Positions 2,737-37,558 are shown, counted from the first letter of the stretch. The stretch is DNA of 64,000 nt from Ostreococcus lucimarinus (GCA_000092065.1 CP000584.1); one strand, 5' to 3'. Numbers and translations are program-made. Notes: a model not told the origin generated them from the sequence alone.

Positions 2737-5745
<3,009 letters not shown>

Positions 5746-5856
5746 TTATTAGTTTTTAGTAATACAAAGATCAGATGGATATCGATAAGGATTTTCTTTT
5801 CGCTTGCCACATTTCGGTTTTGTTGTGCCGGGTCTTGGTTTATCATTCTCGGATCG

Positions 5857-7095
5857 TCAAGCGATGATATCGCTTTGCAAAGCTTCGTTACTAGCGCCAC
5901 CGCTACCGTCACCGCTACCATCGCCGCTACTGTTATCGTCGGGTGAAGCGTCGGACACTTTGCCAAAAGTTTTGGGACGCAAACGCTCGGCATCTTGGGC
6001 GTCGAGAAACGTCGAGCATCCGTCCTCCAAAAGGTCGGATTGCTGCTGCCACATTTGCTTCGAGCACATATTATTCCGCAAATTTCGAATCAGTAAAAGA
6101 GCAGTCTCCCTGTCGATGGCCGTCATATTTTCCAATGGCGTCGTGTGCGACAATCTCAAAGCGTGTTCTGGCTCTGTTCGCGCTTCGTTCACTTTGAACA
6201 AATCTGCGAGAAAACCGTAGACGGTAGCGAAATCTGGGGTGTTCGTGCTATTTTGTAGCGGTGGTGGCACGCCCGGAGCGCGTTTCGGCGCTACGGGTAG
6301 CGAGCCATCCGGTTCCACTTGCAGCCGTAAACGCATCGCTTGCGACATGCCTGGCACGTAGTTGACGGCGCGCTCACCGTCTGCATGATTGCTTTTTTTG
6401 TGTCTCGGTGGCGGCATCTGGTCTCCTTGACCAGACTTCATCAGCTTCAGGAAGTGTTTTTGCGCGTGTGATCTGATCTGCACAACGTCCTTTGATCCGA
6501 CGTATTCCTCGATTCGTTTCCAGTCGCGGCTATACAACTCCAGCGCTCGCAAAAATCTCTGATGTTCCTTCGGCGTCCACGACACACGCGCCCGAGTCTG
6601 CGTGTACGGTTTACGAGGTTTCTTTTTTCCATCCGCACTCGCTCCGCGCGTCGCCGACTTTCGCTTCGACATCTTGTTCGTGTCGCGCGCCACCTTGTCC
6701 ACGGCGGCTTGCACCATCTCCTTGGTGACGATCGGTGGCGACGTCGTCGGCCCGGGGTCCGCCTGCGCCTCCGCGTGCCCTGGCGCCGCCACCAATGCAC
6801 CGTGCTTCATCTTCCGCGTCGCGCCGATCGCGTCCTCGGTCGATCGGGTGCCGACGCGTCGAGCGGGTGCCGACGCGTCGAGCCGATCCGATCCGACGAT
6901 CGAGCCACTCGACACCGTCACCGCGCGCGCGCGCCCGACCCTCTTTCGCGTCCGCGCGCGTCGCGCGACGCGCTCGCGTCGTTCGAGCGCGCGTCTCGCC
7001 CGACGCGTCGGTGCCGCGCCGCGGTGCGTCGAGCGACCGCGTGTGACGCTTCGGTCGCGACGCGTCCGAGCGCTGGAGCGCGCGTTCGCCCGCAC
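5857..7095 (-). CDS. CCA1: CCA1/LHY/REVEILLE-type single-Myb (SHAQKYF-class) transcription factor. The real start is probably Met at 6810 (MKHGAL...), giving about 318 aa.
   Basis: Myb/SANT domain WTPKEHQRFLRALELYSRDWKRIEEYVGSKDVVQIRSHAQKHFLKL matches the CCA1/RVE signature (WTEEEH..FLEAL.LYGR.WQ.IE.H.GTK...QIRSHAQKYF). The Arg-rich first ~95 codons of the ORF look like a translated GC-rich leader. Confidence 0.75.
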   Translation of the reverse strand: MRANARSSARTRRDRSVTRGRSTHRGAAPTRRARRALERRERVARRARTRKRVGRARAVTVSSGSIVGSDRLDASAPARRVGTRSTEDAIGATRKMKHGALVAAPGHAEAQADPGPTTSPPIVTKEMVQAAVDKVARDTNKMSKRKSATRGASADGKKKPRKPYTQTRARVSWTPKEHQRFLRALELYSRDWKRIEEYVGSKDVVQIRSHAQKHFLKLMKSGQGDQMPPPRHKKSNHADGERAVNYVPGMSQAMRLRLQVEPDGSLPVAPKRAPGVPPPLQNSTNTPDFATVYGFLADLFKVNEARTEPEHALRLSHTTPLENMTAIDRETALLLIRNLRNNMCSKQMWQQQSDLLEDGCSTFLDAQDAERLRPKTFGKVSDASPDDNSSGDGSGDGSGGASNEALQSDIIA

Positions 7096-7115
7096 TTCGC
7101 GCCGCGCCTCGCAGC

Positions 7116-7664
7116 ATGGCCACGGTGGCCATCGCGCCCGACGTCCAGACGCACCCCACGGCGACGGCGGTGACGCTGGCGCTGAAGATGGCGCCGATCG
7201 CGACGTACTTGGCGTGCGAACTCGTCAATTCGGACGGTTTCGTCGCAAATTTCGTGGCGTGCGTCCTCGCGCTCGCGGTCGATTTTTGGTGGTGCAAGAA
7301 CGTCAGCGGACGCTTGCTCGTCGGTCTGCGGTATTGGAACGAGATAGACGACGCCGGGGAGTCGCGGTGGCGGTTCGAGGCGAGGGACGACGAGGGCATG
7401 GCGCGCGTGAGCGCGAACGAGAAGCGACTCTTCTGGACGACGCTGTACGGAGGCGCCATCGCGTGGGCCGCGCTGCTCGTCGGCGCCATCGCGTCGTTCG
7501 AATTGAACTACGCGTTGATCCCGTTGGTGGCGCTGTGCTTGGCGATGACGAATTTGGTGGGGTACTTTAAGTGTTCGAAGGACGCGCAGAGTCAGTTGAA
7601 TGGATTCGCGCGAAGGCAAGTCGCGAGCGCGTTGTTTTCGGGCGTCGGGTCCTCGGCCTCGTAG
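7116..7664 (+). CDS. TVP23: Golgi apparatus membrane protein TVP23 (FAM18/DUF846 family)
   Basis: 182-aa ORF with four predicted TM segments and the family motif DFWWCKNVSGRLLVGLRYWNEIDDAGESRWRFE, then later LVGYFKCSK. It is divergent from the CCA1-like gene, separated by about 300 bp. Confidence 0.8.
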   Translation: MATVAIAPDVQTHPTATAVTLALKMAPIATYLACELVNSDGFVANFVACVLALAVDFWWCKNVSGRLLVGLRYWNEIDDAGESRWRFEARDDEGMARVSANEKRLFWTTLYGGAIAWAALLVGAIASFELNYALIPLVALCLAMTNLVGYFKCSKDAQSQLNGFARRQVASALFSGVGSSAS

Positions 7665-7684
7665 ATCGAGGGTTTCGTTCATGT

Positions 7685-7693
7685 AGATATTTT
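7685..7693 (-). promoter_or_regulatory. Evening Element (AAAATATCT, the CCA1/LHY/RVE binding site), the only perfect copy in the window
   Basis: Plus-strand AGATATTTT at 7685-7693 is the reverse complement of AAAATATCT. It lies 21 bp after the TVP23 stop and about 200 bp upstream of the ATG (7897) of the giant gene. The whole window was scanned on both strands for AAAATATCT and AGATATTTT. Confidence 0.4.
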
Positions 7694-7869
7694 AGGAGTT
7701 GTAACGCGCGCGATTCGCGCGATTCTCGCGTTCGTCTTGAGCCGCACGACGTTTTGATCCTCGCGAGAGCGTCGTCGCGCCGCGCGAGATTCAACCAGTC
7801 ATCGACATTCCGAACCGGTGCGGCATCATACGGCGACGCGTCGTCACCCGATCGCGTCGGAGGCGAGAC

Positions 7870-10800
7870 TTGCGGTTATTCCGGAGTCGACGCGCGATGT
7901 CGCGCGCCGCGGGCGCGTCCGCGCCGTCCACGGCGAGCTCGCACGTTGCGTTCAGTGGCTGGCTGACCAAGCGCGGAGGAAAGGATTTATACGGTAAAGC
8001 CACGTGGCGCCTGCGATATTTCGTGCTTCGACGACCGAGACACGCGAAAGAGCGGGCGTGCGTGCGGTACTTCGCCAACGAACCCGCGGACGGGGCGGAG
8101 AGCGCGGCGAAAGGGGAGTTTGCGATTAACGGACAGAGTGCGGTGCGAATCTTGGATTCCGATGAAACGTTCGCGGAATTCGGGCTCAAAGCGCACAAGT
8201 ATGCCGGGAAGCGGATGTTTGCGTTTCAGACGATGCCGGGGCAGGGCGGGAAGAGCGCGGCGCTTGTCGTGGAGGCGGAGGATCTGACGACGATGCAACG
8301 GTGGGTGACGGCGATTAGCGAAGCAATCACTCGGGCAAGAAGTTTGGAGAATGAAGCGGCGAGTAAAACCGGTTTGGCGGTGTTAAACGCGCAAGTCGAT
8401 GGCGATGAAAACGATGTTTTACGAGGGAAGAACTTTCGGGGGACGCTTGAATTGGCGGGACTTTGCGGACCGCTCGGCGACGGCGCGCTCCCCGTGCATT
8501 TGGACGCGTGCTGGGAGAATTTGACCTTTGTTGATCTCATGGCGGATTCGTGCTTGAACGAAAAGCTCGGCAAGATGCGACGATCGAAATACGTGCGCGA
8601 GACGTTGACGAGCTTGGTCGACAGTGCGATCACGATTGGACGGTGCTTGGGGGCGTCGCCGATTCCCATGAGCGGGCCAGAGTCTAACGCGATGAGCACG
8701 ATTCGTCGAGCTCTTGATGATATGCTCGCACTCGCTCGCTTGATGCCAGTCGGTACGAAAGACAATAATATTTTTGTTTCGTTTCTTGCGGCGCTGTTGG
8801 ATCGCGTTCGTCAGCTTCGACCAGGTGAACTGATCATGTGTCCGGGAGGTTGGGCAAACGAAGAAGGCGGCGCTGCGGTGATTTACACCATTCACCGTCT
8901 CCCCGCACACTTCGTTGTGAGCTTGACCAACTGCGGCGACGGTGTGGAGTTTCATCCTATTCAAGCTGATCCTGCGAAAGATGCTTTCAAGTATATTCAT
9001 ACCATTCAGTTGATGGACGTTCCGATAGCCGTCGCGATGGACTCCTCGGCGTGGGCGCTGCTGTTCCGCCCGTTGATTTTCCCTCAAGACGCCGCCAGTG
9101 CGAAAGACATGATTTACAACAAGCTCCTTCCCATGATGAATGGTCGTCCTCTACTCGCTTCGGTCACCCCCAAACCACTGCGCACTGTTAAGTTTGCGAA
9201 ACAGCCAAGAGGACGCGATTCAAGCGGCGTCTTTACCGCACTCGAAGCCGCTCGATGCGGTCTCGCTAGTTTAGGTTGCCCGCCGAATCGTGCAGATGCG
9301 TTGGTGAACCTTGGAGTAAGGTTTGTCATGCTTGAAGAGGCCAAGCGCGATTTGGAGCGCGTGAACATGATCGGTGCAAGCGCTCTGGTTACGTTGCAAG
9401 CGGCGTGTAGAACGGTTGCGGAATACGCGGCGAATCATGCCGACTTGTGCGTCGAGGCAGAAGAAGCAAGTAATGGTGAGCCACCGAAGAAAACGACAAT
9501 GCCCCGAGAAACGCTGGCGCAGATGTTGCGCTCAGTTGAATCGGTGATTCTGCGGACAAAGGCCCTGCACGGCGCAACGACACTACCGCCGGCATTGCAA
9601 CCGCCGAAGGTACCGATCACGGCGTGCGCTTTACCACTCTTCAACCGCCTCGCCAGCGAAGGTAACGTAGATTCGTTAGCAGGTGCAGCTAGAACGCCAC
9701 CGATTTTGAGGCCAGTCGAACTCACATTGGTGCCGGATGCCGTGGCGAAGCTAGAAGACGTACCCAAGGCGTTGAGAAACGCGCTGCATTGCTGCACGAT
9801 TCTCGCAAACCAAGCGGATTTGATGCCAAACTCTTACGCCTTGCGCGTGAGCTTGCTCGTGCACTTGTTTGTACATGTCCTGCCGGCACCTTTACCTATT
9901 ACGCACCCTGAGAGACATACGAAATGCTTTTGGGCATCGGTGAACACCACCTATGAGCTCCAAGCTGAAATTTTGAGGAGTCTAAATTTGTTGCTGCGGC
10001 ACTTTTCCGCCGCAGCGCTTTCAATCAGCGTCACGCAGACTTTCGATGCAGCGCGTTTACTCACCATTGCCAATTTCGCGGCAATCGCGGATGCGACGCT
10101 TCGTCTTAAAGTAGCAGACGCGCCGTCTGCGTTCATGCAACACTACGCCGGATACGCCGAAGGTCCGATTTCGGCGTTTGGTTTTGAAATCGGTCCGTTC
10201 GCCGTTGAGGCAGAGTACTTGCGTTTCCACTGCCCAGAACGTACCATTAGGTTGACTCAGACGCTGGATTACTTTCATAGCTTGAAGAAAACGATCGAGA
10301 GCGATCACATGATTTACCGTTGGGAGAATGAAGCCGCGGGTGGGATGTCGTTTGGCGTCGGCGAGGCGAGACTCATCGATCAAGTCTGTTTGCAAATGGG
10401 TATCGGCCGAGAAGATCCAGAGTACTTGGCAAAGTATCACAGTGGCGAGTTGCGTGAGTTTGCCGATAGCTATCCGGAAATGAGTGCACTTCGAGATATC
10501 ATTTTCATGTTCAAGTTACTCATGGCGCCGACGTCAGACGACCTTCCAGAGCTCGCACGTTGGAAGCCCATCGACGCTGCGTTGGATTGGAGTGTGGCGC
10601 GACGCGAAAGTTCGCGTAGTTACTTTGACTTGGAAGTGCGGGCTTTCGGTCGTGCTTTGACTATTCAGCCTTGGAAAGAACCAGAGGTAGAACAGGGCAC
10701 GTCTAAGACAGGTTGGCGTAACATTTTTGGCGGTGGATTTTTCGCAAGAATGCAAGATCGCCGGCCGCGATGCCCACCTTCGGGCGCCAATCCCAGCAAC

Positions 10801-13800
10801 CTGGCTGGTCAGCGAGTCGACACCGAAGAAGACGTCCTTCATTTGCGCGAGGTACCAACGTTTGACAATCTGCTTAAACCAAGCGAGTCGGAGCTGCTCC
10901 TGACTTACTTGACCGCTCCCATGATTCGTTTGCCGCTCGTGATGAAGCTGTTCGCAGAACCGACACGCGTGCGCGGGTTGACGCACAACGACATTCAGAG
11001 TGTTTTAGACGCTGTGATTTTCGAGCCCGGACCTTGGGCGCCTCCAGAGCCGACGACAATACCAAAGGAAATACCTGCAACAACGCGAGCGCATATGGCA
11101 ACGCCGACTGGTTTACTCGTGCACGAGCTCATCAACTGTCCGGCGCCTCTCGCGGATAGCGCCGAAGAGCTGTTGGCGTTGAGTTTGGAATTAGATACCG
11201 GGCGTCACGACGCACCGAGCGCACAAGGGGTGTTGTTCGCGTGTAGGATGCTCACTAGACTGCTGGCGTTCGTAGATAGCATCCTCAAGGCAAATTCGCT
11301 CGATTCGGAATTCACGACATCCACTGGCTTGACGCGAGGGCTGGATTGTTCGTCGGCGTCTTTGTCGGCACTCGCGGACGTCAAAGTCCGCATCACCAAA
11401 GCACTCAAGGAGAGATGTCGACCAGTGATTCAGCGATGGTTACGTCACGCGGTGAAGAAAAATGCAATTCGTGCGGCTTGCGCACTTCACGCACATCTCG
11501 CGTACATGTACTACTGGACGCCTCGAGTAGAAATAGACAAACAAGCGGCCCTCATTATTCTCACGGCACAGCAGTACATTTTCGTGAACTACCACTTCAC
11601 AGATACACCGGATGGAAGCGAGACGAGCAATAGAAAGTTGGCGGACACGGGGAGTATGAGCGGTGTCGATACTGGTCTCGGCTTTGCGCCGACGGAGATT
11701 TTTGACCTGTTCCAGCGAAAGCGACGGAGCATTCTGGAATGGGCGGCGGCGAATCCGCAAGACGCTAATAGCATTCTGGAGAACGTCGTCGAGACGCTCA
11801 CTACTAAGAAGACAGATGGCTCGAACTCACCAACGAACGTGTTGGATGCAGAGGACACGTTTAGCGCGAAGCGTGCGTGGCGCCGTGCACCAGGTGCGGG
11901 TGGTGCTGGTAGATTTGTCAGCTACGTGTCGGATATCCCATTCGCAGATCTCGTCGAGAGGGACAAACGGGCCGCGGCGCTTTTACTTCAAAACCATCGT
12001 CACTACGGAGAGTGGCTTCTGGAGACGACGCTGCAGTCTTTCGATATGGAAATTAATGCTCAGCTCGGCGAATTCACCGTTCGAAAGAACCGATTGCGTC
12101 ATTTAGAAGCTAGTATTCGTGAAATGCCGGACTTCGTCGCAGCGCTGGGACCAGTGCTCGCCAAGCGCGGGATTGAGCCGTCGCACTTCCAAGAACTCAG
12201 CAAAGGGGACGAGCTCGTGATCGGCGATTCGGGGGATGTCGTTCACTGTGCGGAGGTAAAGAATACGGAGCATCGTACATGGATGCGTCTCGTGGGTCTC
12301 AATCATGATATTCAGTTGTGGGATCGAGATCCAAGACCGCCGCTGAACGAATTTACGCGACCGCTCGTTAGCCGCGTGCAGACAAAGTCACAAGCATTAG
12401 AACTTTTGGGTCGTGCAGTCGGTGCTGGTGGTCTCGCAAGCTGCGAGCAATGGATTCTTTCTATTCTTGATCCCATCATCAAGGGTCCGGGCGCGGGATA
12501 TCTGCACGGTGTCGAGCTCTTTTTACCCAAAAATACAATTCACGGGTCCATAGCTCGCCTCGCCGGCACTGGCGCGCCTGAGAATGCGGTGAGCGAACCT
12601 TGGAGTTTTTGGAAGCGAAAGACTGTGAGCACATCCAATGACGATCAACGTCGCGTGGAAGAGGCCAAGCAGCTCTTGACGGAGGTAATGATCGTTAGAG
12701 AACCTCCTCTGGTACAAGTTTTCCGCGTGGAATCGTACGGTCGACGTTGGCGACGTTCGTTAGTGTTCGCATCAAATGCTTCTTTCTGCCTCGCAGATAT
12801 CGATCCCGATGGTCAACCAATTCTAAAGGATGAAAATGAACGATTTTTACTATCTGCCGCGCGTCTAGGCTCGCGAGCTCCGAGTTTAGTCGTCACGAGA
12901 CTCTTGAATGGCTTCATCGGACGCGAGTCGTTTGTTCCGGCGCGACATTTGCGTGGCTTACTGCCCCAGGTTTTGCTCGAAGAGTACCAGTTTTGGCGAA
13001 GCGAAACTACTGGTGATTTATTTGGTACCGCGAATGAAAGTGCTTCGCACCCGAATACTATGATCCATGTGCGATTGGGCTATGAAAACAATTTACTGCT
13101 CGATGGAGGATTTCCCGTAGATACTCGCGCCATCGTGCGAAGACTTCCAACAATGGGTGCTGATGGGATTTCGCGTCTCCCCCCGCTAGATGGTTCGTAC
13201 GTCGATGGTCAGCTTACATTAGTAGATCTTCTGTATGCGCCCTCGCTGGCGGGTGAACAAGGGCGCGCTCTACTCGCGCTCACCAAGTCTCTCGCCGCCG
13301 TCGAAGGATTGGCACATTCGCTTGTCTGGTCATCAAAACCTGGGCTCGAAAGTGGGCCGAATGAGCACATCGCGGGTGTGTGCGATATATCGCGTGTTGA
13401 ACTTCCAAGACTTGGTGTTTCGTTCAATGCGATAGAGTCAGGTGGTGCTATTCGCTTGGAGTGTGAGGAACACGCCGGGTTGTTTTTAGCGCAAAGACGC
13501 AACGCCGCGCTCGAGATTCTGCTTACCGGGCTGCCGCATGCGCTTCTTCTCGAAGCTCGAGACGGTGCACTGTCTGTGCTATTATCGGCGAGCGCAATAC
13601 CTCGACCCGCGGCGACTGCGTCGGACTTCGCGCATGGAGCGAGCACGGGACTCGGCTCAGATCTCATAATCGATCGTTGGAGCACGCAGTGGGTGGAAAA
13701 CATAGGCAGCACAAAGCACTATGTGTATCCTGTGCATCCTTCGCATGCGACAATCAGTGCAACGTCGATGCCAGCCGCTCTATATCTCGCAATCCTGCGA

Positions 13801-16800
13801 TTCATAGGTCGCGATTATCTCGCCGTGCTCAGACTTGCGGAACTCTGTGTGTCAGAAGCGGTGCCCACGCCAGAGGAAGCGCAGCTGTGGGACGCGCTCG
13901 CGCATGCGTGCTCTTTGGATCCAAGCCCCGACGCCACAGCAGTTCGCGTGAAGCTTATGTTGATGGTAAAAGACACTCCAATCGAACCCCGACTCGCGCT
14001 GAAGTGGCCACCCGTGGCGGATGTACTGAATTACGTCAATTGCTGGTCGTACATCAGCGCAAATTGTCGCCTCACTGGACATGAAGAGCTCACCGCGATC
14101 GAAAGCTTGGTTACGGAGACCATGGCAAAGAAGAAAACTTCCAAGTTCAAGGCTGTCATTAGTTTCATGTTCCCCGGCTCCAAGAAGGCGAGCGCGGCGG
14201 ATATGAGTATGGATCCAACGAAGACCCCAGAGTTGTTGAATCGTGCGGCGTACTTGAGGCAGCTCGTGGGCGGAATCGCGCGCATGAGCGCCGGATCTAC
14301 GCCGACGAGTTCTGGATTCCCTCTAGTATATCCAGTGGCGCCAGAATATGACAGATTCGATACCGTGGACGACCTGACTTGCTTGTCCGATAAGGTAACG
14401 GGTGAAGGACCTCTGGGCAAACTCGCGGGTCTGATTCAAACGTACAATCGTCCAGATGACGTGAGCGTCAACGGTAGTCAGGCGCTCGCTTTGATCGGCC
14501 AATGGATCGACAAGGAAAAGTTCAATCTCGACGGTAACTTGGGATTCCCGTTATTCTTTGAGCTCATGACTGGAACCCTGCCGCTGCGCGTTCTTCCTGG
14601 TGATTCTCCCCATCGTTGGGGTTGCGTTCTCCTTCGTTTTGTGCCAAACGAGCAATCGATGAAGTGCGGTACACTCATGAGTACGTTACGCGTACTTGCT
14701 TCCAGCCCCAACATCGCGCAGGATTGTCCTAAAATGGAAGAACAGAGCGTTGGTCAACGGTTTAGTTCAATGTTTACTTCGGACGGTGCGATAGGTATGT
14801 TACTTCGCAAAGTACGACCGTACCTGCAACAGCGAAAAGAGGAATTCCCCGGTCGCATATCTTGGACGGGCAAGGAGTACTTGACGCAGAGCATATACGA
14901 GTCTGACGTGCAGACTTGGGCGCGTACGATTGCTACTGGCGGCAGATGGGCGCTGACTCGATTCATGAATACATCGTGCTCTGAGCGCGAGTTCTCTCTC
15001 AAGTCGAGCGATAGCGCTGAGATGGCTGGTGGTACCACGTGGAGTGGGAAAACACTCCAGCACGTGGATCTGGAGATGCTCGTGAAGCGCCCACTCGGTG
15101 TCCTTGATTTGAACAAGTATGTCGTTCCTCTTACGGAAGATAGAGCCGATGAACTCGCGGAATCCGTCGCGCTCGGCGGTGTCGGTGGTTTGCCGTTTGA
15201 CGTCAGCCAGCATCCAGCGGCTACGACGTCCGTCGCTAGACAGATGCTCAATCGTTTGCGCGCCGACGTAACCGGAGCATCAGACAAAGCTAAGGCGCGA
15301 CGCATGAATGGTGATTTTAGTGCGGTGACGTTGAAGGGTTTCTCCCCCAGTGATACTGCCGCGATCGCATCTGAAGCGGGTGCAGGCCGCGCCGGTCATG
15401 CCGCGGGGACCGCCCGTGCGGTTCTACGTGAATTGCTAGAAGGAATTCGTCGTGTCACCGCCGACGATAAGGCGGCCGCATCTGAGGCTATGTCAGCTGC
15501 ACTTGCTACGGCGAATGGTTTACGAAAAGACGTCGAGTCTGGGACAAAGATGTTACGTCTCGGATTGCAGCGCCGCGCAGGGGCTTGGGCCGAGGTGACA
15601 TTTGAAGATTTGGTTGAGTGTTTGACGTGCGAAGGCGGCGAACACATTTTATCCCGTTTGTCTCCAGATGTGACCGCAAAGCAAATAGTTGATGCGTTAT
15701 ATTTGACGTCGCAAGCGTTGCTGCTCACGCTTCGCGCGACGCTAGCCGCGAAAGCGGCGGGTATGGTGGCTGACACGCTCATAGCGTTGACGAATTGTGC
15801 AAAGACAGCGGCTATTGACGGTATTGATTCTGTCGATCGAGACTTGAGGCTCAAAGCTCTGGCAATCGCGGAGTTGATTTCAGTGGAACGACATTACTTC
15901 CAGGCGGACACTGCGAATCCATTCAGCAAGGCAACGCGCTTGATCTTTGATCCTCGTTTGCTAGTCTACGAGTACAGTCAGAGCATCGTGCTGCGCAAGC
16001 GCCAAGTCGAGCTGACTCGAGATTTCGTTGACACGGCTGAGAACGGTGGCGGCCAGTGCGCACAGATGCTCATGGGTGAAGGTAAAACAACTGTGGTGTG
16101 TCCATTACTGGGCTTCGTTCTCGCCAAGAGCAGCTCTGTCGTCGTCCAAGTAGTCCCTCACGCACTTCTCGAGTTTTCGCGAAGCACTTTGCGCAAGGCG
16201 TACTCAGGAGTCATCAGACGTTCGGTCGTTACCCTCGAGTTCAACCGATACACATCCCTCGCCGATGGCTCAATACTCGCAACTTTAAGGAAAGCGAAAG
16301 AGAATCGAGCCATCGTCATCTCGTCACCGACAAGCATCAAGTCTCTCGCGCTTAAATTTTTGGAAGTCTGCCACCTGCTCGATCAATCGTACATCGCTGA
16401 CCGTGATGGCAAGACCGGTGGTATGCTCGCACAAGGAGCTGATTTAGTCAGTCGCGTTTTTGGTGGCGCTAAAAGTCGGAGTGAACGTGTTGCTGAGGCT
16501 GGTGGGTTAACCATCGAAGAAATAAACACATTGCGCTCAGAGGCAACGGCGGCCGCGGAAATTTTTGAAATTTTCCAAACTGGCACGCTTATTTTGGACG
16601 AAGTCGACTTGATTCTTCATCCTTTGAAATCCGAACTCAACTGGCCAATGGGTCGACGTATTCCGCTCGACTTCAGCAAGGCTGCGTCAGGCGACGGTTT
16701 GAGATGGAAGCTTCCATATTACATCCTTGACGCCATCTTCGCAGTCACGTACGGGCGCTCGACGGCTTCGGAGGCTGAAGGTTCGCAAGAGGCAATCGAT

Positions 16801-19800
16801 CTGCTCGACGGTATACGCGCCGCGGTTCGAACGGCGATCGAATCGAAACAATTGCAGACATCACCGCATCTAGCGTTGCTCGATAAGTCTTGGTATCAAG
16901 ATATCTTGCGTCCGCTCTTGGCGCAGTGGACGAGCATTTGGCTGCGTGCTCATGGCGCGTTGCGTGGCATGTCAGAGGCACTCATTATGGCGTATCTTCT
17001 GCGGGGACCGGGCGCGGCTGAAGCAAAAGCGCAGCTGAATCGTGAATGTGAAGACGAGGCTGTGAAGATGACCAACCTCGCGCGAGATTGGCTTTGCTCT
17101 CTGTTGCCTCACATGCTCGCGAAGATTAATCGCGTAACGTTTGGTTTGTTACAGCCCGCGGACGTATCGCTACTCGAAGAAGTGACGGGATCGCGTCTGC
17201 CGAAAACCCGTAGACTTTTGGCAGTTCCTTTCGTGGGTAAGGATATTCCGAGTCGAACGAATGAGTTCTCACATCCAGATGTCGTTCTCGGGTTGACAAT
17301 TTGCGCATACCGCCTCGAGGGTTTGCGCCGTGCCGACTTCAAGCAAATGCTTCGAATCTTAATGGAAGAGTACGATAACGAGGCCGGTCCTCCTCAGAAG
17401 CGACCGGCTGCTCGTAGGTGGGCGGACTGGGTGCGTACGACTGGGAAGCGAGTGCGAGGTGAAGCGCGCGCTGAGGCAGCGCTCGCCGCAAGACGACGCG
17501 GCGTTTCGCAGCAAACCGGAACTACAAATGTCGGGGATACCCGCGGATTGGCGTGGCTCGAAGACGACACCGCAGGTCTGCAAGACGACGAGGTTTGGCC
17601 TTTGCAGCTTATCGATCTCAGAGATCACGATCAGGTTGAAGAAATCTACCAACTTCTGCGAAGGACGCCGCCGTGTATCGAGTATTATCTCGACGAATTT
17701 GTCTTCCCTGAAACGGCGCAGCATCAAGATTTGAAACTGAGCGCCACTGGCCAAGAACTCGGTGGTGATGTGTTGTTCCCCAACCGACTCGGTTTTAGCG
17801 GTACCCCGAGCGACTTACTGCCGCTCGAGCTCGGTGCTCCGCGATACGAATCCGGCTCTGACGCCAAGATGCTGGCATACTTGACGGATCCGGAAACCGC
17901 AGCGACGATGCCTTTGGACGTTGATTGGAACGTGCAGACTCTCCTCACCCGTATTGCGACGGTAGACCCACCGATACGTGCGCTCATCGATACGGGTGCG
18001 CTTGTCACGGGCATGTCCAACCTCGATGTCTCGAGATTCTTACTCGAGAAGGGTCTGAAATGGGCTGAAGGATGTGTGTTCCTCGACGAAAATGATCGAC
18101 AGATGATTCTCATGCGCAAAGGATGGGAAGTCATTCCTCTTCAACGCGTCGCCGCAATGCCTTTGACGAAACGATTTACGTTCTATGATCAAGTTCATAC
18201 GACCGGTATGGACATCAAACAGGCCGCGGCGTCGCAGGCAGCCATCACCCTCGGTAAAGACATGTGTCTTCGCGATTATGCGCAGGGTGCTTGGCGCATG
18301 CGCGGTTTGGGCAAGGGTCAGACGCTAAAGGTGATTGTGATTCCGGAGGTTGCGAGACTCATCTCGCACGAAGTTGCCAAAGGAGGTGGACAGATCCCAT
18401 CGACGCGCGATGCTGAACTCGCGACAATGTCGGCCGAAGCGGTCGAGAAGCGTAAGTTACGAGACATCACGGCTTGGCTCGTCGTGAACAGTATGCGAAG
18501 TGAGAATATTCAAGCCGGTTTGCTCGCAGAGCAACGCGCGGCGAATATCTGGAGAAAGCATTCATACAGGAAGCTTGTGTCATCGCCCACTGCACCGGGA
18601 ACACCAAAGGCGGAGGGTATGATTCACGCGTGCCTTGACGTCTTCCGAGATCGCGTGTCGTACGTCGTGGCGAATGTCATTCCTCAAAGTGTATCGCCTT
18701 CAGAGAAGTTAGCGAGGAGCGTACAGCAGTTCGGACATTTGCTCGACGATAGTCCTCGCGCAAAAGAGCAATTACGATTGATCGTGAACGACGTGAAGCA
18801 AATGGAGGAGACGACGAATGCGGCGTTGAAGCGGATTCGCGCTGGCACACACATGGCTCCAGATGCGGCGGAGTCCGGTGATCAAGGTTTGGCTGGTGGT
18901 TTGGAGCACGCCTTGGACCTCGAGCAAGTTCAAGAGAATGAGGAAGAACAAGAAAATGAGCAAGAACAAGAGCAAGAGAAGGAAGAAGAACGTGAGGAAG
19001 AAATCATCGAGGAAGCCCCAGATGGCTTGAAGTACGTGCGCGACGACGAGAAACAGCCGTCGTGGAGTTACGAGTCTTTGTGCAAAAGTCCAAGCTCAAT
19101 GGCTCAAGGTTTCTACCCACTCAAAACGTTCAAGATACATAAAGGTGTCGGCAAGACTACAGCACCTTTGGATTTCCCGGAGTATCTATATCTATCGAAA
19201 AATTACTTCCGTGAAGGATGGGCGCTCAACGGCCATCGACGCTTGAAGAATCTCACCGTCGTGCTGGACTGGGTACCGGATAGCAGCGCTTTATCGACCG
19301 ACGCCGGTGGTAGCGTCGCGGCGGGTACGTTCACAGCAGACCAGGAGTCAGCGCTACGAACTGCGTTCGATATGTTTGACTCTTCCGGAAACGGTCGTTT
19401 GACAGAGTCCGACCTCCGAGAGGTTTTGCGTGAGATCGACGCTTGCGTAGAAGACGATGAGCTTCGTCTTCAACAGTTGGCGCGTGAGGTTGCTGCAGAA
19501 TCACGCACGTTCAATACCGGGGGTAAGTCATCTGGGACGTCTTTCGAGGAGTTAAAGCGCGTCCTTCGTTCGAAGAACATTTACTCATTGCAACGTGGGC
19601 GATACTACGTCGCGTTGTCTCTGGCTGAAGCCGAGTCGCTGCGCGTTGTCATGCATCTCACGAAGGGTAGTAAAGCGAGTGACGGCAAACTGATTCCATC
19701 CAAACTCACCGAAGCTGCGTTGCGAATCGGTGGCGGTACGCTCATCGATAACACGTCGAGATTTACGCCCGCACAGGTGTTTCAAGGTGCGACGGCCGAG

Positions 19801-36940: not shown

Positions 36941-37558
36941 CTAAACGCACAGTCTGTACGTGACGTACCGCCCCGCGGTCTCACTCGGCCTGATGATGCG
37001 CACGACTTGTCCGCGACGCATTCCGTAATACCGCGCGATCGGATCGTGCATCTGAATTCGTGGCAACTGCGTATCCTTCACCTTGTACCGATCCAGCAGC
37101 GTCCTCTTCTGATCGTCGCTCAGCAAAATATGTTCCGGCACCAACACGTGATCGATGATGTTCACCAACAACTCCGTCTCTTGGAACTGTTCGATGTAAA
37201 ACTTTTGCGTCTGACACTCCAGCAACGACTGCTTCGCGAACGGCGTCAGCGACGCCTGCACCACGATGATCGCTCGAAACACATTTTCATCCTTCATGCG
37301 CTTCGCCAGATCCTTAATCGTCTTCACACCAACCTTTTCCTCGTCCGGGAAGAACACGAAGATATTTTCCGAGGGATCGTCGCGTTTCGGCGCCAGGATC
37401 GTCAGGCTCTCTCGCTTTGGCTCTTCGCCGAAATCCTCCGTGAACGAATCGATATCTCTCTCGAGCTCTTTCGCGCTCACGAGGTATCCACGCGCTGCGA
37501 GCATTTTGTGAATCGTCTTGCGCACGCGGAACAACCGCGTTCGCTTATCGTTGCTCAT
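36941..37558 (-). CDS. RPB5: DNA-directed RNA polymerases I, II and III subunit RPABC1 (Rpb5)
   Basis: 205 aa: MSNDKRTRLFRVRKTIHKMLAARGYLV...RAIIVVQASLTPFAKQ...HVLVPEHILLSDDQKRTLLDRYKVKDTQLPRIQMHDPIARYYGMRRGQVVRIIRPSETAGRYVTYRLCV. This is a canonical Rpb5 along its full length. Confidence 0.9.
   Translation of the reverse strand: MSNDKRTRLFRVRKTIHKMLAARGYLVSAKELERDIDSFTEDFGEEPKRESLTILAPKRDDPSENIFVFFPDEEKVGVKTIKDLAKRMKDENVFRAIIVVQASLTPFAKQSLLECQTQKFYIEQFQETELLVNIIDHVLVPEHILLSDDQKRTLLDRYKVKDTQLPRIQMHDPIARYYGMRRGQVVRIIRPSETAGRYVTYRLCV

What the first reader, a model, noticed from the sequence alone, without database searches (positions are those of the whole stretch)
5857..7900. CCA1/RVE-type clock Myb gene with a perfect Evening Element ~900 bp away in the giant gene's promoter
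The minus-strand gene 5857..6810(7095) encodes a CCA1/LHY/REVEILLE-class Myb (SHAQKHF). In Ostreococcus, CCA1 is one half of the minimal TOC1-CCA1 circadian oscillator. Only one exact AAAATATCT (the EE bound by CCA1/RVE proteins) exists in the 64 kb window, at 7685-7693. It sits between the TVP23 stop and the start of the giant PH/EF-hand gene, about 200 bp upstream of that gene's ATG. This suggests the giant gene, and possibly TVP23's 3' region, is a direct clock output.
Basis: partly seen in the sequence, partly recalled or inferred. Interest (0 to 1): 0.6.

Follow-up and report, generated by a model that had tools for sequence, protein, structure and literature searches.

The report
RVE8-type Myb gene, unconserved Evening Element
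The gene is a real clock-family Myb transcription factor of the alga Ostreococcus lucimarinus, but it is the REVEILLE8-like paralogue rather than the oscillator gene CCA1, and the nearby "Evening Element" is an unconserved 9-base match in the tail of the neighbouring gene, so the finding is mostly ordinary.

Summary
The window is Ostreococcus lucimarinus CCE9901: the TVP23 protein is identical to XP_001417361. The minus-strand gene 5857-6810 is real and intact. It carries a SHAQK(H)F Myb domain plus the LCL/"REVEILLE 6-like" domain (PF24904).

It is not the oscillator CCA1. The published O. lucimarinus CCA1 is Ol06g02240 on chromosome 6 and shares only the Myb domain with this gene. A 66-residue Myb tree separates the two groups in 200 of 200 bootstraps. 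The window gene belongs to the RVE8/LCL subclade, whose presence in Ostreococcus has already been reported.

The Evening Element (EE) at 7685-7693 is real, but it is not unique. A second exact copy lies in the RPB5 coding sequence at 37360-37368.

The intergenic copy starts 21 nt after the TVP23 stop codon. It abuts TGTAG and lies 7 nt before a conserved TGTAA, the known O. lucimarinus poly(A) signal.

All 10 O. lucimarinus-type contigs examined carry it, but the five whose spacers were aligned are identical, so this carries no information. It is absent, even at one mismatch, from the orthologous spacer of five other syntenic Ostreococcus-like lineages. The closest relative reads AGCGATTTG.

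The clock-output idea is therefore unsupported, and the gene's closeness to the motif is best read as coincidence.

The parts
5857..6810 (-). Coding sequence (with stop codon) of a 317-aa single-Myb transcription factor of the LCL/RVE8 subclade. It is not CCA1.
   Evidence: ORF and ATG. The same start is used by gene calls on 8 of the 10 O. lucimarinus-type metagenome contigs. Pfam Myb_DNA-binding plus RVE6. Orthologues in the same gene order in five other lineages. dN/dS 0.43 against the sister lineage.
6454..6588 (-). Myb/SANT DNA-binding domain (residues 75-119), with recognition helix VVQIRSHAQKH(F).
   Evidence: PF00249, 43.3 bits. Translation. Invariant columns across algae and land plants. 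Matches PDB 6nvz, a SHAQKYF-family Myb, at E = 1.8e-16.
6046..6237 (-). LCL ('REVEILLE 6-like') domain (residues 192-255), starting PDFATVYGFLADLF and containing DRETALLLIRNLRNN.
   Evidence: PF24904, 36.1 bits against a cut-off of 27. Translation. The block is conserved from Ostreococcus lineages to Marchantia, Physcomitrium and rice.
6811..7115 (.). Divergent spacer (76% GC) between the Myb gene and TVP23. It holds a tandem 19-nt repeat (6839-6876) and three copies of the palindrome CGACGCGTCG. It has no EE, even at one mismatch.
7116..7664 (+). TVP23/DUF846 Golgi membrane protein gene. The product is identical to O. lucimarinus XP_001417361.
7685..7693 (-). Exact Evening Element match AAAATATCT (AGATATTTT on the + strand), 21 nt after the TVP23 stop and 204 nt before the giant gene's ATG.
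   Evidence: Present on all 10 O. lucimarinus-type contigs. Absent from the five other lineages.
7682..7704 (+). Likely 3'-end processing region of the TVP23 mRNA: TGTAG (7682-7686), a U-rich stretch, then TGTAA (7700-7704). The EE match lies inside it.
   Evidence: UGUAA is the O. lucimarinus poly(A) signal (PMC6413133). TGTA occurs within 45 nt of the stop in 12 of 31 window genes, against 5-7% of random windows. TGTAA sits in a block invariant between the window and the sister lineage.
7834..7854 (.). Inverted copy of the 21-nt element CGATCGGGTGCCGACGCGTCG, 43-63 nt upstream of the giant gene's ATG. The same element occurs twice in the Myb/TVP23 spacer.
   Evidence: The CGACGCGTCG core is invariant in the sister lineage.
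7897..21672 (+). Giant 4591-aa gene (PH, DUF3638, DUF3645, EF-hands, Vps62-like), the proposed EE target.
   Evidence: Conserved at 4584-4616 aa and in the same position in all lineages.
37360..37368 (-). Second exact AAAATATCT, inside the RPB5 coding sequence (codons for SENIF).

Best explanation
Two unrelated things sit next to each other.

(1) The gene at 5857-6810 (-) is the O. lucimarinus member of the LCL/RVE8 subclade of SHAQKYF single-Myb factors.
- Shown here: it has the Myb domain, the PPPR-K motif that follows it, and the LCL domain. It is intact and sits in the same gene order in six Ostreococcus-like lineages. It is a different gene from the oscillator CCA1 (Ol06g02240).
- Inferred by analogy with Arabidopsis RVE8/4/6: it binds EE-type sequences (AATATCT core) through the Myb domain. 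It uses the LCL domain to recruit a co-activator, acting as an activator opposite the CCA1 repressor.

(2) The AAAATATCT at 7685-7693 is most likely a lineage-specific, non-selected match. It lies in the A/U-rich stretch just upstream of the UGUAA poly(A) signal of TVP23. It is probably transcribed as part of the TVP23 3' UTR and is not a conserved promoter element of the giant gene. Its closeness to the Myb gene is coincidence.
For: Gene identity:
- TVP23 is exactly XP_001417361 of O. lucimarinus.
- PF00249 and PF24904 both score above their cut-offs.
- All named top hits are RVE6/8/3/5 with PF24904. The published Ol CCA1 retrieves LHY/RVE1/2/7, none with PF24904.
- BLASTP similarity to Ol CCA1 is limited to the Myb domain.
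- The NJ split is supported in 200 of 200 bootstraps, with diagnostic residues S14, D33, V46, Y/H56 and G64.
- The LCL block aligns with land-plant RVEs.
- Published work reports one LHY-like and two RVE-like sMYBs in O. tauri and O. lucimarinus (PMC9516744) and an O. tauri gene in the LCL clade (PMC12866927).
- Synteny is conserved.
- RVE8 activates through LNK proteins that bind its LCL domain (PMC7692566; PMC6356500).

EE:
- There are two copies in the window, one of them coding.
- The sister lineage reads AGCGATTTG, while the adjacent 30-nt block GGAGTTGTAACGCGCGCGATTCGCGCGATT is invariant.
- No 9-mer, 8-mer, 7-mer core or one-mismatch match occurs in the spacer of any of the five other lineages.
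- The motif is flanked by TGTAG and TGTAA. TGTA is enriched after stop codons (12 of 31 genes against ~5%), and 3' flanks are 47% GC against 72% for 5' flanks.
- UGUAA is the published poly(A) signal of this species.
Against: - An exact 9-mer is still rarer than composition predicts: 0.03 expected across all 3' flanks and 0.08 in the whole window.
- EEs are functional and enriched in Ostreococcus promoters. Examples are the TOC1 promoters of four Ostreococcus/Micromonas species, including O. lucimarinus at -375(-), and dusk-phased genes in O. tauri.
- A position about 200 bp upstream of an ATG, in either orientation, fits those known sites.
- Lack of conservation does not exclude a recently gained site.
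- Neither transcript ends, nor DNA binding, nor expression could be examined here.
- The activator role of the Myb protein is by analogy only. No LNK homologue was looked for in Ostreococcus.
Confidence: 0.75

Rival explanations
1. The EE at 7685-7693 is a working clock-output element of the giant PH/EF-hand gene, and perhaps of TVP23. It is bound by CCA1 and/or the neighbouring RVE-type Myb and gives evening-phased transcription.
For: - The match is an exact 9-mer against an expectation of 0.08 per window.
- It lies 204 nt upstream of the ATG. Known functional or conserved EEs in Mamiellales TOC1 promoters lie at -268 to -784 on either strand.
- The EE 8-mer is enriched in promoters of dusk-phased O. 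tauri genes.
- Ostreococcus intergenic spacers are so short (232 nt here) that promoter elements may overlap the upstream 3' UTR.
Against: - It is not conserved in any of five syntenic lineages, including one with a ~90% identical spacer.
- It sits between TGTAG and the conserved TGTAA poly(A) signal of TVP23.
- A second exact copy lies in coding sequence, which shows such matches arise without function.
- The only sequence element seen to be shared by the giant gene's promoter and the Myb/TVP23 promoter is a different one, the CGACGCGTCG-containing 21-mer.
- Nearly all Ostreococcus genes cycle in light/dark (PMC9516744), so a diel rhythm alone would not discriminate.
Confidence: 0.15
2. The Myb gene is the oscillator CCA1 itself, one half of the TOC1-CCA1 loop.
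For: It has a SHAQK-type Myb domain of the CCA1/LHY/RVE family.
Against: - The published O. lucimarinus CCA1 is Ol06g02240 on chromosome 6, with a different sequence.
- The window gene has the LCL domain and SHAQKHF-LK rather than SHAQKFF-SK.
- It falls on the other side of a 200/200 split.
- Its neighbours (TIP49, TVP23) lie on ~932-kb contigs, which I take to be chromosome 4 (the chromosome assignment is my inference).
Confidence: 0.01
3. The LCL-type Myb is a real but unrecognised third component of the Ostreococcus oscillator. It would be an EE-binding activator of TOC1-type evening genes, and the O. lucimarinus-specific EE would be one of its recently acquired targets.
For: - The Myb and LCL domains are strictly conserved from Ostreococcus to land plants, and synteny is conserved across six lineages.
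- RVE8/4/6 play this role in Arabidopsis.
- Ostreococcus clock models have used only CCA1 and TOC1. One survey counted only one RVE-family gene in O. tauri (PMC5638080).
Against: - No functional data exist.
- LNK co-activators are reported only from land plants in the paper read and were not searched for here.
- The gene is the most diverged coding sequence of its neighbourhood against the sister lineage, with dN/dS 0.43. That is relaxed for a core clock part.
- The EE target link has the weaknesses listed above.
Confidence: 0.25

Closest known systems
Arabidopsis RVE8/LCL5 (with RVE4, RVE6; LCL subclade of the REVEILLE family)
   Same: A single SHAQK(Y)F Myb domain, followed by the FLK-x-K-x-G...PPPR-K motif and a C-terminal LCL domain (PF24904). 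It groups with this clade in 200 of 200 bootstraps.
   Different: - SHAQKHF instead of SHAQKYF in O. lucimarinus, its sister lineage and the two lineages represented by L012 and L015.
- The link between the Myb and LCL domains is much shorter.
- There are extra Mamiellales-specific C-terminal motifs, CSxQMWQQQxDL...GCxTFLDxxDA and SGxGSGGxSNEA, which the land-plant proteins lack.
- EE binding, LNK interaction and activator function are untested.
Ostreococcus CCA1 (ostta06g02340 / Ol06g02240), the Myb half of the TOC1-CCA1 oscillator
   Same: The same Myb superfamily, and the same organism. By family analogy both are expected to recognise the EE. Ostreococcus CCA1 is reported to bind the EE of the TOC1 promoter (PMC7692566).
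   Different: A different locus and chromosome. Similarity is confined to the Myb domain (37% over 145 aa). CCA1 has SHAQKFF, has no LCL domain, and clusters with LHY/RVE1/2/7.
Evening Element of Mamiellales TOC1 promoters (AAAATATCT at -268 to -784)
   Same: An identical 9-mer, found on either strand, a few hundred bp upstream of an ATG.
   Different: The TOC1 EE is present in five of six Mamiellales species with a TOC1 gene and was tested functionally in O. tauri. The one here is restricted to O. lucimarinus and lies 21 nt after the upstream gene's stop codon, within its poly(A)-signal region.
Green-algal UGUAA polyadenylation signal with an upstream U-rich element
   Same: TGTAA lies 36 nt after the TVP23 stop and is preceded by TGTAG and a T-rich run. 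This matches the published O. lucimarinus pattern and the TGTA enrichment after stop codons in this window.
   Different: The poly(A) site of TVP23 has not been mapped. Assigning the EE-containing stretch to the 3' UTR is an inference.

Membership tests
LCL/RVE8 subclade of REVEILLE (SHAQKYF single-Myb) transcription factors | A single Myb/SANT domain with a SHAQK(Y/F)F recognition helix | tested here: met
   PF00249, 43.3 bits (cut-off 24.4), residues 75-119. The motif is IRSHAQKHF, with His where the clade usually has Tyr. Orthologues in the other lineages have Y.
LCL/RVE8 subclade of REVEILLE (SHAQKYF single-Myb) transcription factors | LCL (LHY/CCA1-like, 'REVEILLE 6-like') domain C-terminal to the Myb domain | tested here: met
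   PF24904, 36.1 bits (cut-off 27), residues 192-255. The block PDF..VY.F...F / ET.LLM.N aligns with Marchantia, Physcomitrium, rice and oil-palm RVEs.
LCL/RVE8 subclade of REVEILLE (SHAQKYF single-Myb) transcription factors | Groups with RVE3/4/5/6/8 rather than CCA1/LHY/RVE1/2/7 in a phylogeny | tested here: met
   NJ tree on the 66-aa Myb core. The split is recovered in 200 of 200 bootstraps, with six diagnostic columns. The reciprocal best named hits agree. Limits: a short alignment and a distance method only.
LCL/RVE8 subclade of REVEILLE (SHAQKYF single-Myb) transcription factors | Binds the Evening Element and activates transcription through LNK co-activators bound to the LCL domain | not testable with these tools
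   Known for Arabidopsis RVE8 (PMC7692566, PMC6356500). There are no binding or interaction data for Ostreococcus, and no LNK search was run.
CCA1/LHY clade (oscillator CCA1 of Ostreococcus) | Identity or orthology with the characterised CCA1 locus (ostta06g02340 / Ol06g02240) | tested here: not met
   BLASTP finds 37% identity over 145 aa, in the Myb region only. The published gene is on chromosome 6.
CCA1/LHY clade (oscillator CCA1 of Ostreococcus) | SHAQKFF motif, G-R-A-W in helix 2, and no LCL domain | tested here: not met
   The window protein has SHAQKHF and S-R-D-W and carries PF24904. None of the 120 listed hits to Ol CCA1 carries PF24904.
Functional Evening Element (clock cis-element) | Exact AAAATATCT (or the AAATATCT core) | tested here: met
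   7685-7693, minus strand.
Functional Evening Element (clock cis-element) | Conservation in orthologous promoters of related species | tested here: not met
   Absent at zero or one mismatch, and as the 7-mer core, from the TVP23-giant spacer of five other syntenic lineages. The sister lineage has AGCGATTTG at the aligned position.
Functional Evening Element (clock cis-element) | Located in promoter DNA upstream of the target's transcription start | tested here: inconclusive
   It lies 204 nt upstream of the giant gene's ATG, but also 21 nt after the TVP23 stop and before its TGTAA signal. It is therefore probably within the TVP23 transcript. Transcript ends are unknown.
Functional Evening Element (clock cis-element) | Bound by CCA1/RVE proteins, with the target showing evening-phased circadian expression | not testable with these tools
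   No expression or binding data for O. lucimarinus were available.

The most novel reading that the evidence does not exclude
Ostreococcus, long modelled as a two-gene (TOC1-CCA1) clock, keeps a strictly syntenic RVE8/LCL-type Myb with an intact LCL domain and Mamiellales-specific C-terminal motifs. This protein could be an unrecognised EE-binding activator arm of the oscillator. Its unusually high divergence between very close lineages (dS 0.22 against 0.03 for the neighbouring giant gene) could reflect clock-related ecotype adaptation. The O. lucimarinus-only EE would then be a newly gained target site.
Probability: 0.2. Interest if true: 0.55.

Novelty: already known. Interest (0 to 1): 0.18.

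Why it matters
The evidence does not support that.

What remains is a correction. This locus is the REVEILLE8-like paralogue, not CCA1. The presence of such a gene in Ostreococcus has already been noted in phylogenomic papers (PMC9516744, PMC12866927).

The only forward-looking value is that this conserved LCL-type factor has, as far as the papers read here show, never been tested functionally in the "two-gene" Ostreococcus clock. A knock-out or over-expression in O. tauri reporter lines would be a cheap and informative experiment.

Tried and rejected
- Corellou et al. 2009 (PMC2798331) is not held. CCA1 identity was taken from PMC12704426 Tables S2/S3 instead.
- Cluster look-ups did not name the non-lucimarinus lineages. 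They are called "Ostreococcus-like" on the basis of synteny and 56-59% GC. I could not say which is O. tauri, RCC809 or O. mediterraneus.
- If the sister or another lineage were RCC809, which has lost TOC1/CCA1 function, its lack of an EE would be less informative. However, all five lineages lack it.
- Spacers of the more distant lineages cannot be aligned reliably (47-51% column identity). The ancestral state of the EE site could therefore not be polarised.
- The five O. lucimarinus-type spacers that were aligned are 100% identical, so population data carry no signal.
- The Rfam scan of the window found nothing.
- The TIP49 dN/dS comparison was mis-framed and is discarded.
- Supplementary material of PMC9516744 gives no gene IDs for the Ostreococcus RVE-like genes.
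- PMC12216367 does not mention an ostta04g Myb.
- Near-EE sequences in the Myb/TVP23 divergent spacer of three other lineages sit at non-homologous positions. I treated them as probable chance matches.

Full report
**Source and layout.** The 182-aa protein encoded at 7116-7664 (+) is identical to XP_001417361 / A4RWN6 of Ostreococcus lucimarinus CCE9901. The same protein, in the same gene neighbourhood, lies on all 10 marine-metagenome contigs examined, the longest about 932 kb. The local gene order is:
- alanyl-tRNA synthetase
- class-IV aminotransferase
- TIP49/RuvBL (+, ends 5745)
- Myb gene (-, 5857-6810)
- TVP23/DUF846 (+, 7116-7664)
- a 4591-aa gene with PH, DUF3638, DUF3645, EF-hand and Vps62-like domains (+, ATG 7897 to 21672)

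**Check of the observation.**
- The ATG at 6810 is the start used by gene callers on 8 of the 10 O. lucimarinus-type contigs. It also matches the start of the sister-lineage protein P0003.
- The statement that the window holds only one exact EE is wrong. A second copy lies at 37360-37368, in the RPB5 coding sequence, within the codons for SENIF.
- The chance expectation for this 61% GC window is 0.08, not 0.5, and 2 of 100 shuffles reach two copies.
- With a rough codon-usage gene map, an order-1 model expects 0.09 copies in coding sequence, 0.03 in all 60-nt 3' flanks and 0.01 in all noncoding sequence.
- 15 of the 504 nine-mers of identical base composition also occur at least twice.
- The motif is somewhat unexpected but not striking, especially for a motif chosen after reading the sequence.

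**What the Myb gene is.**
- Pfam finds Myb_DNA-binding (43 bits) and the REVEILLE 6-like domain PF24904 (36 bits, cut-off 27). PF24904 is the LCL domain that defines the RVE3/4/5/6/8 subclade (PMC5638080; PMC9516744).
- All named hits among the top 120 are land-plant RVE6/8/3/5-type proteins carrying PF24904.
- The gene that the literature treats as O. lucimarinus CCA1 is Ol06g02240 on chromosome 6 (PMC12704426 Tables S2/S3). BLASTP of the window protein against it aligns only the Myb region, at 37% over 145 aa.
- Using Ol06g02240 as the query returns LHY, RVE1, RVE2 and RVE7, none with PF24904.
- An NJ tree was built on the 66-residue Myb core of 32 sequences. It groups the window protein, its Ostreococcus-lineage orthologues and land-plant RVE3/5/6/8. 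These separate from Mamiellales CCA1 plus land-plant LHY/RVE1/2/7 in 200 of 200 bootstraps, with six fully diagnostic columns.
- The full-length alignment shows three regions conserved from Ostreococcus to rice: the Myb domain, the FLK-K-G...PPPR-K motif and the LCL block.
- The gene is therefore an RVE8/LCL-type paralogue, not the oscillator CCA1.
- This agrees with earlier reports of one LHY-like and two RVE-like sMYBs in O. tauri and O. lucimarinus, and of an O. tauri member of the LCL clade. An earlier survey had listed only one RVE-family gene for O. tauri.

**Conservation of the locus.** Five further lineages have the same gene order from the aminotransferase to the giant gene.
- Their TVP23 proteins are 93, 67, 65, 60 and 58% identical to the window's, and their GC content is 56-59%.
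- From my own knowledge, Bathycoccus is about 48% GC and Micromonas about 64-66%. I therefore regard these lineages as other Ostreococcus clades, though none could be named.
- All have an intact Myb+RVE6 gene, except on a few long-read contigs whose frameshifts are probably assembly errors.

**Conservation of the EE.** All ten O. lucimarinus-type contigs carry it. The five whose TVP23-giant spacers were aligned are 100% identical to the window across the whole spacer, so this says nothing about constraint.
- In the sister lineage the spacer is about 90% identical. The aligned site reads AGCGATTTG, which is two substitutions plus an indel, or three mismatches in nine.
- By contrast, the 30 nt that immediately follow, GGAGTTGTAACGCGCGCGATTCGCGCGATT, are invariant.
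- In the four more distant lineages the spacer cannot be aligned. It contains no 9-mer, no 8-mer, no AATATCT core and no one-mismatch variant. No exact EE occurs anywhere in those 9-12 kb loci.

**Local context of the EE.** It starts 21 nt after the TVP23 stop codon.
- On the TVP23 sense strand the sequence is TAG...TCA-TGTAG-ATATTTTAGGAGT-TGTAA-CG.
- UGUAA is the dominant poly(A) signal of O. lucimarinus itself and is preceded by U-rich sequence (PMC6413133).
- In this window TGTA occurs within 45 nt after the stop codon in 12 of 31 genes. That compares with 5-7% of random 49-nt windows and 3% of regions upstream of an ATG.
- The 3' flanks are 47% GC, while the 5' flanks are 72% GC.
- The conserved TGTAA at 7700-7704 implies cleavage some 15-40 nt further on. 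That would put the EE inside the TVP23 3' UTR. This is an inference, because no transcript data were available.
- AT-rich words such as the EE are thus concentrated in exactly this kind of place for reasons unrelated to the clock.

**Mechanism.**
- The best-supported reading is that the Myb gene encodes an EE-type DNA-binding factor of the RVE8 kind.
- In Arabidopsis, RVE8 binds EE-containing promoters of PRR5 and TOC1 and activates them through LNK proteins that contact the LCL domain. The same is inferred here but not shown.
- The EE near it is best explained as a chance, lineage-specific match within 3'-end processing sequence.
- A transcription factor acts in trans, so the 900 bp between the gene and the motif carries no mechanistic weight.
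- I cannot exclude a recently gained functional site. EEs do work in Ostreococcus: TOC1 promoters carry them at -268 to -784 on either strand, and the 8-mer is enriched among dusk-phased O. tauri genes. I give that rival about 0.15.

**Comparison and novelty.**
- The gene is a member of the LCL/RVE8 subclade. Domain, motif and phylogeny tests are met, and function is untested.
- It fails every test for being CCA1.
- The motif meets only the sequence criterion for an EE. It fails the conservation test, and its promoter location is inconclusive.
- The genome is published, and the existence of RVE/LCL-type sMYBs in Ostreococcus has been noted. The finding is therefore already known in substance, and its new element, the clock-output claim, is unsupported.

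**Things seen along the way.**
- A 21-nt element, CGATCGGGTGCCGACGCGTCG, occurs twice in tandem register (19-nt period) in the Myb/TVP23 spacer. It occurs once more, inverted, 43-63 nt upstream of the giant gene's ATG.
- Its palindromic core CGACGCGTCG occurs 10 times in the window against 2.6 expected, and no shuffle reached 10. It is a better candidate than the EE for a shared promoter element.
- Against the sister lineage the Myb gene is a local divergence hotspot. It is 76-86% identical at the nucleotide level, with dS 0.22 and dN/dS 0.43. The giant gene is 97-100% identical with dS 0.03.
- The Mamiellales LCL proteins share C-terminal motifs that are absent from land-plant proteins.

Noticed in passing
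window 6839-6880, 7001-7010, 7834-7854; also 2480, 32695, 40585, 45608, 46175, 49526: A 21-nt element, CGATCGGGTGCCGACGCGTCG, occurs twice in the Myb/TVP23 divergent spacer. It occurs once more, inverted, 43-63 nt upstream of the giant gene's ATG. Its palindromic core CGACGCGTCG occurs 10 times in the window against 2.6 expected (0 of 100 shuffles reach 10), mostly in or near 5' regions. It is a candidate common promoter element with an ACGCGT/CGCG-box-like core.
   Followed up: partly
window 5616-7115 versus L025 (sister lineage): The Myb gene and its 5' spacer are a divergence hotspot between O. lucimarinus and its closest relative. Nucleotide identity is 76-86%, with dS 0.22 and dN/dS 0.43. 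TVP23 has dS 0.15. The adjacent giant gene is 97-100% identical with dS 0.03. A seven-fold range in dS over 10 kb suggests a mosaic or introgressed history, or unusual selection at this clock-family gene.
   Followed up: partly
window 5860-6060 (-), residues ~248-317 of the Myb protein: Two C-terminal motifs, C-S-x-Q-M-W-Q-Q-Q-x-D-L...G-C-x-T-F-L-D-x-x-D-A and S-G-x-G-S-G-G-x-S-N-E-A, are conserved among all Ostreococcus-like orthologues and related metagenome proteins. They are absent from land-plant RVEs. Their function is unknown.
   Followed up: no
L012 5704, L015 5831, L018 5727, L020 5668, L021 2438 (Myb-TVP23 divergent spacers): The O. lucimarinus divergent spacer has no EE-like sequence. 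Three other lineages carry near-EEs there: AAAATATCA (L012 and L015), AAATTATCT (L018), and GAATATCT with the AATATCT core (L020 and L021). The positions are not alignable, so these may be chance matches. Clock control of the RVE-like gene in those lineages is conceivable.
   Followed up: partly
window, all gene flanks: There is a strong compositional asymmetry around genes. The 200 nt upstream of ATGs are 72% GC and CGCG-rich. The 60 nt after stop codons are 47% GC, and TGTA occurs within 45 nt of the stop in 12 of 31 genes. This is consistent with the published UGUAA poly(A) signal.
   Followed up: yes
window ~6130-6140 (-), LCL domain loop: The reference-type window sequence reads ...RLSHTTPLE... 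The representative sequences of the two metagenome protein clusters that are 98-99% identical to the window protein (P0001, P0002) read ...RLSNAHTTPLE... This 2-aa indel polymorphism, in the variable loop of the LCL domain, gives 317 versus 319 aa.
   Followed up: no
window 7897-21672 (+): The giant gene (PH, DUF3638, DUF3645, several EF-hands, a Vps62-like C-terminus) is conserved in position in all six lineages, and its length, known for five of them, is 4584-4616 aa. It is nearly invariant against the sister lineage (99% aa identity over the first 1900 residues). Its function is unknown.
   Followed up: no
L013, L023, L026: On some long-read-derived contigs the Myb, TIP49 or giant genes are split into several short calls. 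These look like frameshift assembly errors rather than pseudogenes, because sibling contigs of the same lineage are intact.
   Followed up: no
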